This document shows, piece after piece, positions 58,901 through 61,900 of a stretch of 64,000 nt of DNA; position 1 is the first letter of the stretch, and every line of letters begins with the position of its first letter. The DNA is from Diadema antillarum (lineage: Eukaryota): assembly GCF_040938485.1 (NCBI RefSeq), contig NW_027270890.1, forward strand, positions 6,572,001 to 6,636,000, written 5' to 3'. Made by a program: the position numbers.

Positions 58901-61900
58901 TTATCTCATCATATTAATCAGGTTGATGGTAGTAATGTAGGTGCTGTTCTTTCCTGGAGACGAGTTATAACCTGCAATAAGGGATGCTTAATTCAACATA
59001 GATTACAATAACATCTAATTTAAAATCTCCTGACAAGCCGTCGGTCTCTGATTAAATCTGGATCACGCTGTGTAAAACTAAGATAATTTCACAACTAATG
59101 GTAGTTCTGCAATCAACGGTAACCATTGGTTATGGAATACTGTTTAATACTATAGGTTATAATAGATTATTACCATAGAATACTAGTTACCATTGATTGC
59201 AAAATTGCCATTTATTGTAAAGGTACAACACAGTCGTATCCAAACCCTACAAGCCTTTACTGAAGACATGTCGTTTATCCCTTTGTACTGTTTATGTTTT
59301 CAATGTTATCAAGTTTTAATTAATTAAATCACTTACATCAATCAGTAGAGTTAGTTGCTATCTACCCATCAAACTTGACGAAAGTTCATCTCTTTGCATT
59401 CCGTCGTGCAAGTCAGCAATATGTCATTGTGTGGTCGTGACACAGTATTGTATCAAGGGTTCCGTTTATATTATGACTATCATTGACTATTGTAAAACGT
59501 GGAAATGAGGCTCGATCGGAATTTTGAAATAGTGGGATTGCAGATAAATCCATATTCAGGGAATCACCCAATAGAAATGAGTCTGTTTGTTTCCAAAATC
59601 ACAAAGGACAGAATGTCTGGACAATGCATGAGGTTTTCTCGCTTCTTAATGCCTTCACATACGTTACTTCTAATTGTAATTCAACGTTTTAACAAATAAA
59701 CACATACCTAAATGGGCTCAAAACTTGTGACGTATTTTCATTTATATAACATCGAATCGCGTTTGTTCTGAGAAAACAAATAGTTTTCGCAATGCAGTTT
59801 CTTTTAACCAAATTAATATACTAGTGACTGATTCTGACTACTGACAAGGAGAATTCAGCCTCTTCAACTTACCCACTTACGCTCATTATTATCAGTGTTT
59901 ATGAAGAACGTCTCTTCTCGAAAGCAGAGGATATTTAAAAAACAGGATCACCTAATCGTATTTTCCACTCATTTGGTAATGTACAATGTAGGCTGGGCCG
60001 GAAAGATCACGCGAACGCTAACTTCATGGGATGATGCCTTCAAAATAAGAAGTATAGTTGCATTTCCCCCCTAACCACGTATACATCGTTCAGGGCAAAC
60101 AAAAAGTTCTTCCACAGAAACTTAAGATGTTTGTTTTTGTTTTGTGTGACTGTTTCTTATTTCTACTTTAGCACATAAAGGTGTAGTCAGCAACTGCGGT
60201 CATTTGTCCAATATCAATAATTTGACATCAATATTATTGAAGATGGTTAACGCTCTTAAGATGTAAATCTCTAAACCTTTGGAGCTTTATGATTTTTATC
60301 TAGAGACAACTTTTATTAGAAAGCTGCTAAAAGAAAATTCAATGAAACAATCACTTTTATGCAGTGTTACGAAACAGCTGTATCATCCTCTATGTTTTAT
60401 TTTATTTTTTGTAAATGTTTGTGTAACTTGTATGCTGTATTCCTTATCACCCATCGCAGGATAACAGATACAACTACAAGTGTTAGGGTGGAAAGTGGAT
60501 TCTTTCACGTGGGCGAACATTTCACCTAACCGTTACCAGAGATTCAAAGCCTTAACTCACTCATCATGGTGACTTCATGCTAATGGAAGCACAAACGCGT
60601 TCAGATACTTCTTACACGCTTTCATACACAGCGATGATGGTAGAGATGGATACGACAGATCCTGCCATGGCAACCCTTCCAAATATCCCCGAGGAGACCA
60701 GCGAATGGGTGTGGAGCATGACATGGTCCTGGACAAACCTGCTACAACTGATATTTTCATTGGTAGGAAGTATCGGTAACCTTCTGGTGATTCTTGTCCT
60801 GGCCGGGCGGCAGACGGCCCGGTACTCTATGGATGTTTTCATCTTGGCACTGGCGGTGGCCGATTTCTTGACGTCCGTGGTAATGATCCCAGTTCCGATG
60901 GCTCAGCGCGTGCCAGATACGATTGCAGGTTCTTTATACTGCAAGGTGATATACCCAAGCTACCTGTTGTGGATATTCGTCTTCTCGTCTGCCTACATCC
61001 TAGCAGGCATGTCCGTGGAGCGTTTCGTGGCGGTGGCATATCCTCTACACCGTCACCATGTCATCACGAAGCGACGAGTGTACATCTTCCTGGCCGTCGT
61101 TGGCGTACTTTCCACTCCTGCTTCTGCGCAAAATTTAAAAGTTGAAGTCATAGGTAACAGGTGCCAGGACACAAAACCGATGAATGTGAAAATTGACATT
61201 GCTATCTATCTCTTCTTTTCTCGCGTGGGTTTCCCTGTGCTCACCATGGTCGTTACGCAGGTCTTGACCGCCGTGGTTCTACATGGACAGCACAAAGAGC
61301 TGGAAAACGTCTTGTCTGCTCAGAAAGGTGGTGTCCCGTCCATTCACCTCACAGCTCGCAACAACATCGTGAAGATGACGGCTACCGTAGTAGCAGTCTT
61401 CATCCTCAGCTTGGGTCCAAGTAACCTGATGTTTATGATAACAGGCCTTCGTGGAACCATCAGATCCCATTTGTTCAGCCCTCTCTACTACGTCCTAAAC
61501 GTTTTTGCTTTCATCAACCCGACAGCTAATCCCTTCATTTACGCAGCTCGGTACCCTAAGTTTCGAACGGCCATCAAGGACGTCTTCACCAAAGGATTGT
61601 CCAAGACGAAGTTGCCTCTTTTTGATCAGGGCATCGATCACTATTTAGGGGTTGGTACGCAGATAACTAATGCTTCGGCCATGAGTGGCCCAATCTGAGA
61701 AAGCAAAATTAAACAATCGTTACCTCACCAGCTCACGTCGGCTTTAAATCAAAGAATTTACACAACCGTTAAAAGTAAAGTCATGTTCTTATAAGGAAAA
61801 AAAAAGCTTCAATTCCTTAAGTGGTAATAGTTAAATGAGTTAACTTTAGAGATAGTCTCCTTTCGTTTCACTGTGGACTATCAGGTGGAAGGTGTATGTA

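What the first reader, a model, noticed from the sequence alone, without database searches (positions are those of the whole stretch)
60960..61440. GPCR4 is a patchwork: copy-2-like in TM3 and ECL2, copy-3-like elsewhere
The flanks and N-terminus show copy 4 is the sister of copy 3. Yet over 60 nt of ECL2/TM5 start (61147-61206 vs 43739-43798) copies 4 and 2 are identical, while copy 3 (51905-51964) differs at 17 positions, including 8 purely synonymous codons. Four synonymous TM3 sites also group 4 with 2. Then 61307-61440 is identical between 3 and 4, and copy 2 differs at 19 sites. Incongruence at synonymous sites points to interlocus gene conversion or unequal crossing-over that swaps the putative ligand-facing loop, a way of generating combinatorial receptor specificity.
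Basis: partly seen in the sequence, partly recalled or inferred. Interest (0 to 1): 0.65.

Follow-up and report, generated by a model that had tools for sequence, protein, structure and literature searches.

The report
Mosaic sea-urchin receptor gene by conversion
One of three neighbouring sea-urchin receptor genes carries a middle section, including a loop that probably faces the ligand, that was copied long ago from a non-adjacent neighbour; this is real, but it is a familiar way for receptor gene families to evolve.

Summary
The window holds four intronless class-A GPCR genes of a Diadema sea urchin, not human. Over 61147-61206, copy 4 equals copy 2 and copy 3 differs at 17 sites, 8 of them in purely synonymous codons. 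Over 61307-61440, copy 4 equals copy 3 and copy 2 differs at 19 sites. Runs that long never arose in 200,000 permutations. A triplet test picks one model: a copy-3-like backbone with a copy-2-like insert at about 60882-61275 (0 of 100,000). It is not an assembly chimera. The same block pattern occurs in the protein from a second D. antillarum contig and in a D. setosum paralogue, so the mosaic most likely predates the species split. Copy 2 resembles copies 3 and 4 only within the coding region (57-61% identity upstream, 95-99% in the TM1-TM4 core), so the whole array evolves in concert. The two ECL2 types differ at synonymous sites as deeply as either does from distant copy 1. Short-tract interlocus gene conversion fits best. 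The idea of combinatorial ligand specificity is untested. This is a new example of a known process.

The parts
19083..20177 (+). GPCR copy 1 (364 aa), a distant paralogue used as outgroup
   Evidence: ORF. Pfam 7tm_1 E=1.9e-37. pS about 0.72 to copies 2-4. D. setosum counterpart P0006 differs at 9 of 364 aa.
43175..44290 (+). GPCR copy 2 (371 aa), the likely donor of the central segment
   Evidence: ORF. 7tm_1 E=4.1e-34. High identity to copies 3 and 4 is limited to 43124-44310. Orthologue D. setosum P0003 differs at 19 aa.
51335..52456 (+). GPCR copy 3 (373 aa), which carries the second, deeply divergent ECL2 type at 51905-51964
   Evidence: Orthologue D. setosum P0002 differs at 24 aa and its ECL2 segment is identical.
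60577..61698 (+). GPCR copy 4 (373 aa), the mosaic gene
   Evidence: Second-contig version P0001 differs at 7 aa; D. setosum P0004 shows the same block pattern.
60882..61275 (+). Copy-2-like central segment of copy 4 (residues 102-233: end of TM2, ECL1, TM3, TM4, ECL2 and most of TM5)
   Evidence: Maximum descent 23, reached in 0 of 100,000 permutations; synonymous codons only, 2 of 100,000. Inside the segment there are 29 copy-2-like and 6 copy-3-like sites, outside 14 and 59, Fisher p=3.4e-10.
60928..61085 (+). 158 nt identical in copies 2 and 4 (TM3 to TM4), holding the four synonymous TM3 sites and codon 135
   Evidence: V135A occurs in both second-contig proteins P0001 and P0049.
61138..61211 (+). 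74 nt identical in copies 2 and 4 (copy 2: 43730-43803), covering the ECL2 beta-hairpin with Cys196 and the start of TM5. Copy 3 (51896-51969) differs at 17 sites.
   Evidence: Four-taxon informative sites: 6 for (2,4)(1,3) and 0 for the other groupings.
61307..61440 (+). 134 nt identical in copies 3 and 4 (copy 3: 52065-52198; end of TM5, ICL3 and TM6). Copy 2 differs at 19 sites.
   Evidence: P=1.2e-5 at the mean copy 3-copy 4 divergence. 6 informative sites for (3,4)(1,2) and 0 for the others.
58365..63831 (+). Duplication unit of copy 4, collinear with the copy-3 unit at 49648-54300
   Evidence: blastn pieces at 76-86% identity. More sensitive alignments show 66-89%.
59952..60256 (.). 305-nt stretch upstream of copy 4 that is absent from the copy-3 unit (an indel between the two units)
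   Evidence: No second copy in the window.

Best explanation
Copies 2, 3 and 4 are functional paralogues in a tandem array of intronless class-A GPCR genes of a Diadema sea urchin, and they exchange short stretches by non-reciprocal interlocus gene conversion. Copy 2 split from the copy-3/4 lineage long ago, as its flanks are nearly saturated. The coding regions have since been homogenised piece by piece, except for a stretch of about 60 nt encoding the ECL2 hairpin and the start of TM5, which survives in two old types. After the copy-3/copy-4 duplication, and most likely before D. antillarum and D. setosum split, a conversion tract from copy 2 overwrote the middle of copy 4 (about 60882-61275). 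That gave copy 4 a copy-2-type TM3 and ECL2 inside a copy-3-type N-terminus, TM6 and flanks. Later exchanges followed: copy 3 with copy 4 over 61307-61440, and probably further copy 2 with copy 4 exchange in TM3. Shown here: the mosaic, its statistical support, its presence in a second contig and a second species, and the confinement of copy-2 similarity to the coding region. Inferred: the direction (copy 2 to copy 4), the order of events, and that selection keeps the two ECL2 types apart.
For: (1) Tracts. Runs of 17 and 19 concordant sites were reached in 0 of 200,000 permutations, and the result holds at synonymous codons (17 and 66 of 200,000). (2) Triplet test. Copy 4 as a copy-3 background with a copy-2 insert was reached in 0 of 100,000 permutations, and in 2 of 100,000 for synonymous codons. 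(3) Flanks. Copies 3 and 4 are 89% identical just upstream and 64-84% downstream. Copy 2 against copies 3 and 4 is 57-61% upstream but 95-99% in the TM1-TM4 core. Whole-CDS pS is 0.20-0.22 for copy 2 against copies 3 and 4, far below the flank divergence (JC d 0.55-0.64). (4) ECL2. Copies 3 and 4 are only 77% identical in that 100-nt window, less than in their own upstream flank. pS there is 0.76-0.83 between the types, as deep as to copy 1. It is the most divergent 20-codon window for copy 2 against copy 3 (233 of 20,000 permutations) and for copy 3 against copy 4 (25 of 20,000). Copy 2, an old paralogue, supplies that depth without a further donor. (5) Not an artefact, and old. At 22 amino-acid positions fixed between the copy-2 and copy-3 orthologue pairs, window copy 4 and second-contig P0001 both read 33o332o222223333333332, and D. 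setosum P0004 reads 333332222222333o333222. The window copy 4 and P0004 calls agree at 17 of 22 positions. (6) Recurrent exchange. D. setosum P0003 and P0004 share changes of their own (A117T, Y126F, L230M). On the second D. antillarum contig both the copy-2 and copy-4 proteins carry V135A, inside the 158-nt stretch identical in copies 2 and 4. (7) No outside donor was found. None of the 42 family proteins outside the copy-2/3/4 group matches the copy-3 ECL2 at more than 18 of 31 positions, and the window holds no further GPCR fragment.
Against: The direction is not proven. If the ECL2 tract belonged to the homogenised core, where copies 2 and 4 differ at 7 of 318 nt, then zero differences in 74 nt would have P=0.19. 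In that case copy 3 could be the altered copy. The outgroup does not decide it: at the 17 sites copy 1 matches copy 3 at 6 and copies 2 and 4 at 5. All evidence from the other species and the second contig is protein-level only. Segment protein trees were unresolved. D. setosum P0004 is not clearly the orthologue of copy 4 by overall distance: it differs from copy 4 at 42 aa, while copy 4 differs from copy 3 at 38 aa. Parallel conversions in the two species therefore cannot be ruled out. The other triplet models are also nominally significant (290 and 416 of 100,000), which shows that no copy is a pure parent.
Confidence: 0.68

Rival explanations
1. Copy 3 is the altered gene. The ECL2 region of all three copies had been homogenised like the TM1-TM4 core, and copy 3 then received a 60-nt tract from a distant paralogue outside the window, before the species split. 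On this view copy 4 simply keeps the common type.
For: The copy-3 tract is as far from copies 2 and 4 as from copy 1 at synonymous sites. Zero differences between copies 2 and 4 in 74 nt is unremarkable at the core rate (P=0.19). Outgroup polarity is neutral, 6 against 5 sites.
Against: No candidate donor was found. The best of the 42 outside proteins matches 18 of 31 positions and matches the copy-2 type equally well (19). There is no extra GPCR fragment in the window. This view does not explain why copy-2-like sites in copy 4 extend beyond ECL2 (12:6 inside against 14:59 outside, p=1.9e-4). It also does not explain the four synonymous TM3 sites.
Confidence: 0.2
2. A single unequal crossing-over between misaligned copies created copy 4 as a hybrid gene.
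For: Tandem arrays in the same orientation, spaced 8-9 kb apart, allow misalignment. The finding itself raised this possibility.
Against: A single crossover gives one breakpoint, with flanks of different ancestry on the two sides. Copy 4 has copy-3-like sequence on both sides (upstream flank, N-terminus, TM6, downstream flank) around internal copy-2-like patches. At least four switches are needed.
Confidence: 0.05
3. It is an assembly artefact: copy 4 is a chimera of reads from copies 2 and 3, or copies 3 and 4 are alleles placed in tandem.
For: The D. antillarum assembly annotated by NCBI retains both haplotypes (PMC13511894, abstract and section 4.5), so assembly problems are conceivable.
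Against: The same mosaic is seen in protein P0001 from a second contig and in D. setosum P0004, and D. setosum has three separate paralogues on one 42.9-Mb contig. Copy-4-private sites lie within 11 nt before the tract and 8 nt after it (61131, 61135, 61137 | 61212, 61219), leaving too little shared sequence for an assembler to switch copies. The copy-3 and copy-4 units differ by 11-34% in their flanks and by a 305-nt indel, far above the reported 2.52% heterozygosity (PMC13511894 abstract). I had no reads to test this directly.
Confidence: 0.02
4. There was no exchange: parallel selection on the loop plus uneven mutation rates produced the pattern.
For: ECL2 is a plausible target of selection, and the N-terminus shows an excess of amino-acid changes.
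Against: Eight purely synonymous codons in ECL2 and 13 consecutive synonymous-codon sites in the TM6 tract follow the same groupings. Selection on the protein cannot align silent sites.
Confidence: 0.02

Closest known systems
Mosaic odorant and vomeronasal receptor genes made by gene conversion in vertebrate OR clusters (review PMC1995454, passages read, which cites Sharon et al. 1999, not read)
   Same: Both involve single-exon class-A GPCR genes in tandem arrays. Conversion both homogenises whole coding regions and produces mosaic receptors.
   Different: This is a different and only distantly related GPCR lineage, in an echinoderm. The mosaic here is shared by two species. The piece that escapes homogenisation is a 60-nt ECL2 and TM5-start island with two deep types.
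Sea-urchin 'surreal-GPCRs' and echinoderm OR-like receptors (PMC7042368, passages read; the original S. purpuratus paper is known to me only as its reference 33)
   Same: These are rhodopsin-type genes, mostly single-exon, in tandem arrays, belonging to echinoderm-specific expansions. The relatives found here are almost all echinoid.
   Different: Membership in a named surreal-GPCR group was not tested. The best S. purpuratus hit is only 33% identical (P0042). Expression in tube feet or pedicellariae is unknown.
Concerted evolution with selected islands, as described for MHC peptide-binding regions
   Same: Short-tract conversion shuffles ligand-contacting motifs among paralogues, while old motif lineages persist across species.
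   Different: There is no evidence here for balancing selection or for polymorphism of the ECL2 types within a locus. Only two types in three genes are seen.
Galanin, allatostatin-A, apelin and QRFP receptors (the automatic names of the database relatives)
   Same: They share the class-A fold and have weak sequence similarity (E about 4e-17 to 1e-10 to solved structures).
   Different: There is no specific orthology. Near-identical paralogues carry different automatic names, and DRY is replaced by ERF. The names should not be read as a ligand assignment.

Membership tests
Class-A (rhodopsin-like) GPCR, Pfam PF00001 7tm_1 | Profile match above the curated cut-off over the full domain | tested here: met
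   All 4 of 4 copies match at 118-130 bits against a cut-off of 30.5, covering profile positions 1-260 of 260.
Class-A (rhodopsin-like) GPCR, Pfam PF00001 7tm_1 | Seven transmembrane helices plus helix 8, and the signature residues (N in TM1, D in TM2, the TM3 Cys and ECL2 Cys pair, E/DRY, P in TM5 and TM6, NPxxY) | tested here: met
   The model of copy 4 (mean pLDDT 73.9, pTM 0.71) has helices at 52-77, 84-102, 116-154, 165-188, 202-248, 256-292, 302-325 and 327-338. Invariant in the 26-sequence alignment: N68, D96, C122, E148, C196, P220, P281, N318, P319 and Y322. E/DRY reads ERF. The residue numbering scheme is recalled.
Interlocus (ectopic) gene conversion | Contiguous tracts whose ancestry conflicts with the rest of the gene, including at synonymous sites | tested here: met
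Interlocus (ectopic) gene conversion | Non-reciprocal internal patch: the recipient keeps its own flanks on both sides and the donor copy is still present | tested here: met
   Copy 4 has copy-3-like flanks on both sides, and copy 2 is intact 17.4 kb upstream.
Interlocus (ectopic) gene conversion | Direction and timing shown by outgroup or orthologue DNA, or by polymorphic tracts | tested here: inconclusive
   Only proteins were available. The block pattern is shared with D. setosum P0004, and V135A is shared by two paralogues on the second contig. Nucleotide evidence is lacking.
Echinoderm chemosensory-candidate 'surreal' or OR-like GPCRs | Single-exon gene in a tandem array within an echinoderm-specific expansion | tested here: met
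   The ORFs are uninterrupted, and four genes lie on one strand within 43 kb. Of the 34 named hits among 46, 33 are echinoid (Diadema, Lytechinus, Strongylocentrotus) and one weak hit is a fish.
Echinoderm chemosensory-candidate 'surreal' or OR-like GPCRs | Placement in one of the published groups, and expression in tube feet, pedicellariae or other exposed tissue | not tested
   No tree against the published groups was built, and no expression data were available.
Named neuropeptide receptors (allatostatin-A, galanin, QRFP) | Specific orthology to a receptor with a known ligand | tested here: inconclusive
   The best solved relatives are a mix of apelin, galanin-2, TAAR, adenosine and adrenergic receptors at E=4e-17 to 1e-10. 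Automatic names differ among close paralogues.

The most novel reading that the evidence does not exclude
The ECL2 hairpin and TM5 start act as an exchangeable module that exists in two old types. Selection keeps the two types distinct across species while the rest of the array is homogenised. Short-tract conversion moves the module between backbones that differ in the N-terminus and TM6, so the array samples combinations of ligand-facing parts. If this is general in the hundreds of tandem echinoderm GPCRs, conversion rather than point mutation would be a main source of new chemoreceptor specificities.
Probability: 0.25. Interest if true: 0.55.

Novelty: new member of a known kind. Interest (0 to 1): 0.35.

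Why it matters
It gives a clean and statistically strong example of short-tract gene conversion in an echinoderm GPCR array. It has an internal control: silent sites, flanks, a second haplotype-like contig and a second species all agree. It shows that orthology and dating in these arrays cannot be read from whole-gene trees. It warns that the automatic receptor names are unreliable. It also yields a testable hypothesis: copies 3 and 4 differ mainly in the ECL2 module and the N-terminus, so loop-swap chimeras would show directly whether the loop sets ligand preference. Two keyword searches found no paper on gene conversion in sea-urchin GPCRs. One returned 0 papers. The other returned 10 papers, none on this topic by title or abstract. 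The process itself is well known from vertebrate odorant receptors (PMC1995454).

Tried and rejected
(1) My first triplet statistic took the larger of ascent and descent and was swamped by the 65:43 imbalance, giving 55,525 of 100,000 for copy 4. I replaced it with the proper one-sided maximum descent.
(2) ML trees of proteins for the central segment and for the rest (12 sequences) were unresolved within the copy-2/3/4 group. Only the copy-2 clade in the 'rest' tree reached 80/99. These trees neither support nor contradict the mosaic.
(3) Donor search for the copy-3 ECL2: 47 database proteins were aligned with the 4 window proteins. P0047, P0048 and P0050 were left out because they equal the window's own copies. 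No donor was found.
(4) tblastn of the four proteins against the window found no additional copies or fragments.
(5) Pfam on five other ORFs of 159-204 aa gave 0 of 5 with a match.
(6) The 305-nt indel upstream of copy 4 has no other copy in the window.
(7) Copy 1 as outgroup is too saturated (pS about 0.72) to polarise silent sites.
(8) The genome-contig collection holds only bacteria and archaea, so I did not use it. No DNA of D. setosum or of the second D. antillarum contig could be examined.
(9) No complex prediction or fold search was run, as neither bears on the question.
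Full report
What the window is. The 64-kb window is AT-rich (about 37% G+C) and has five runs of N, which I left untouched. Under the standard code it holds four uninterrupted ORFs on the + strand, each matching Pfam 7tm_1 over the whole profile (118-130 bits against a cut-off of 30.5). They are copy 1 at 19083-20177, copy 2 at 43175-44290, copy 3 at 51335-52456 and copy 4 at 60577-61698. A protein search with copy 4 gave 46 hits among 7362 candidates. The close hits are all from the sea urchins Diadema antillarum and D. 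setosum. Three cluster members listed without names equal the window's copies 2, 3 and 4 read from an internal Met (P0050, P0047, P0048). The window is therefore most likely D. antillarum, and it is not human. The genes are single-exon, so no spliced model had to be joined.

Checking the observation. Every count in the finding is right. Over 61147-61206, copy 4 equals copy 2 (0 differences) and copy 3 differs at 17 positions, 8 of them in purely synonymous codons. Four synonymous TM3 sites (60967, 60984, 60990, 61000) group copy 4 with copy 2. Copies 3 and 4 are identical over 61307-61440, where copy 2 differs at 19 sites. Among 1113 aligned positions of copies 2-4, 155 vary: 65 group copies 3 and 4, 43 group copies 2 and 4, 40 group copies 2 and 3, and 7 differ in all three. 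Overall the three genes are close to equidistant, with 115, 112 and 90 pairwise differences.

Is it more than chance? Shuffling the pattern labels over the 155 sites never produced a run of 19 or of 17 in 200,000 trials. With the 61 sites in synonymous codons only, the observed runs of 13 and 8 were reached 17 and 66 times in 200,000 trials. A 3SEQ-style maximum-descent test favours one model: copy 4 is a copy-3 background with a copy-2 insert spanning 60882-61275. That descent of 23 was reached in 0 of 100,000 permutations, and in 2 of 100,000 for synonymous codons only. My first version of this statistic was flawed and is discarded. The other triplet models are weaker but not null (290 and 416 of 100,000), so no copy is a pure parent. 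Inside 60882-61275, copy-2-like sites outnumber copy-3-like sites 29 to 6, against 14 to 59 outside (p=3.4e-10). Without the 17 ECL2 sites the ratio inside is still 12 to 6 (p=1.9e-4). The TM3 and ECL2 patches are thus best seen as parts of one copy-2-like centre of about 400 nt, broken by a small copy-3-like stretch at 61105-61137.

Anatomy. An AlphaFold model of copy 4 was built from 26 of the 51 sequences on hand (mean pLDDT 73.9, pTM 0.71). It shows seven helices plus helix 8, and a beta-hairpin in ECL2 with strands at 189-192 and 195-198. TM5 starts at residue 202. The 60-nt tract (residues 191-210) therefore covers the second half of the hairpin, the conserved Cys196 and the first turns of TM5. 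The tract identical in copies 3 and 4 (residues 244-288) covers the end of TM5, ICL3 and most of TM6. From general knowledge of class-A receptors, ECL2 around the conserved cysteine lines the entrance to the binding pocket. That is a plausible lead for this family, not a tested result. The two ECL2 types differ at six residues within the tract (192, 195, 197, 203, 206, 209), including R/T, Q/K and N/K changes.

Flanks and concerted evolution. Copies 3 and 4 sit in collinear units of about 5 kb (49648-54300 and 58365-63831) at 66-89% identity, with a 305-nt indel at 59952-60256. Copy 2 matches them at high identity only over 43124-44310, which is the ORF plus about 50 nt upstream and 20 nt downstream. 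Identity is 57-61% in the 300 nt upstream, rises to 95-99% in the TM1-TM4 core and falls to 40-60% downstream. Whole-CDS pS for copy 2 against copies 3 and 4 is 0.20-0.22, far below the flank divergence (JC d about 0.55-0.64). So the coding regions have been homogenised long after the duplication. In the core (60787-61104) there is no amino-acid difference among the three copies and pS is only 0.07-0.13.

The ECL2 island. In the ECL2 tract, pS between the copy-3 type and the copy-2/4 type is 0.76-0.83, the same as to distant copy 1 (0.75-0.88). It is the most divergent 20-codon window for copy 2 against copy 3 (233 of 20,000 permutations) and for copy 3 against copy 4 (25 of 20,000). Copies 3 and 4 are less alike there (77%) than in their non-coding upstream flank (89%). 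Point mutation since the copy-3/4 duplication cannot account for this, so one of the two must have taken its loop from a more distant source. Copy 2 is such a source and is identical to copy 4 there. No other candidate appeared among the 42 family proteins outside the group (best match 18 of 31 positions) or in the window.

A second contig and a second species. D. setosum has three paralogues on one 42.9-Mb contig. P0003 is the copy-2 orthologue (19 aa differences). P0002 is the copy-3 orthologue (24 differences), and its ECL2 segment is identical to copy 3. P0004 is a third copy. At the 22 residues where both orthologue pairs agree within a pair and differ between pairs, window copy 4 and second-contig P0001 both read 33o332o222223333333332. 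D. setosum P0004 reads 333332222222333o333222. The window copy 4 and P0004 calls are the same at 17 of 22 positions, and the only direct conflicts are two C-terminal positions. The mosaic therefore exists in an independently assembled contig and in another species. The D. antillarum assembly that NCBI annotated is reported to retain both haplotypes, with 2.52% heterozygosity (PMC13511894, abstract and section 4.5; bioRxiv 10.64898/2026.05.24.727502, passages). The second contig is therefore most simply the other haplotype, which is my inference. Against a simple picture, P0004 is no closer to copy 4 overall (42 aa differences) than copy 3 is (38), and segment protein trees were unresolved.

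Recurrent exchange. D. setosum P0003 and P0004 share A117T, Y126F and L230M, which are absent from P0002 and from all window copies. On the second D. antillarum contig both the copy-2 and copy-4 proteins carry V135A. Codon 135 lies inside the 158-nt stretch identical in copies 2 and 4. These shared, lineage-specific changes between the same two non-adjacent paralogues suggest that exchange between copies 2 and 4 went on after the species split. The 134-nt identity of copies 3 and 4 (P=1.2e-5 at their mean divergence) contrasts with 8 aa differences between P0002 and P0004 in that segment, which points to a recent exchange between copies 3 and 4 in the D. antillarum lineage.

Mechanism and rivals. 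Internal patches of 74-400 nt with the recipient's own sequence on both sides are the signature of non-reciprocal conversion, not of one unequal crossover. An assembly chimera is very unlikely. Besides the independent copies of the mosaic, copy-4-private sites lie within 11 nt before the tract and 8 nt after it, leaving too little shared sequence for an assembler to switch copies. Selection alone cannot align silent sites. The serious rival is that copy 3, rather than copy 4, was overwritten, by an unsampled donor. This stays possible (I give it about 0.2) because zero differences in 74 nt is unremarkable at the core rate (P=0.19) and copy 1 does not polarise the sites.

Comparison and novelty. 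Conversion that both homogenises and makes mosaics is described for vertebrate odorant and vomeronasal receptor clusters (PMC1995454, passages). Echinoderm OR-like 'surreal' GPCRs are single-exon tandem arrays (PMC7042368, passages). Keyword searches found no paper on conversion in sea-urchin GPCRs. These searches cover open-access text only, and supplements were closed. This is a new member of a known kind. The database names 'allatostatin-A receptor-like', 'QRFP-like' and 'neuropeptide receptor 15-like', given to near-identical paralogues, do not assign a ligand.

Limits. No DNA from D. setosum or from the second contig, no reads and no expression data could be examined. The timing and direction of the conversion and any role in ligand choice remain inferences.

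Noticed in passing
window 60577-60786 against 51335-51544: The extracellular N-termini of copies 3 and 4 differ by 14 non-synonymous changes and only 1 synonymous change, against 34:42 in the rest of the gene (Fisher p=4e-4). Within annotated codons 21-70, 8 codons differ non-synonymously and 1 synonymously. This suggests either recent homogenisation followed by fast amino-acid change, or relaxed constraint.
   Followed up: partly
window 60577-60636, 51335-51394, 43175-43225: The ORFs run 17-20 codons upstream of the start used in the database proteins (353-354 aa). The paralogue P0005 is annotated with a similar 'MEAQ' start, so the longer N-terminus may be the real one.
   Followed up: no
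window 61273-61287 and 61519: Copy 4 has private amino-acid changes. L232V, R235G and changes near the C-terminus are absent from the second-contig version P0001, so they look polymorphic. The S-to-P change before NPxxY (FINPTANP) is present in both versions.
   Followed up: no
window 17280-17552: An (AATATAC)n microsatellite of about 40 units lies 1.5 kb upstream of copy 1.
   Followed up: no
window 38534-39714 and 46886-47273; 10398-10748 and 32851-33207: Dispersed repeats at 70-79% identity, some of them inverted, lie on both sides of copy 2 and elsewhere. They are probably transposon remnants.
   Followed up: no
D. setosum protein P0004, residues 357-362: The C-terminal tail of the D. setosum third copy is copy-2-like where the window's copy 4 is copy-3-like, so the two species differ in at least one further tract.
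   Followed up: partly
window 2312-2794, 25391-25870, 27742-28356, 29584-30165: None of five other ORFs of 159-204 aa has a Pfam match (0 of 5). The 24 kb between copies 1 and 2 holds no recognisable gene by this crude test.
   Followed up: partly
window 8666-9316: The long 'ORFs' listed here run through masked N stretches (8904-9041, 9069-9223) and are artefacts of the masking. I left them alone.
   Followed up: no
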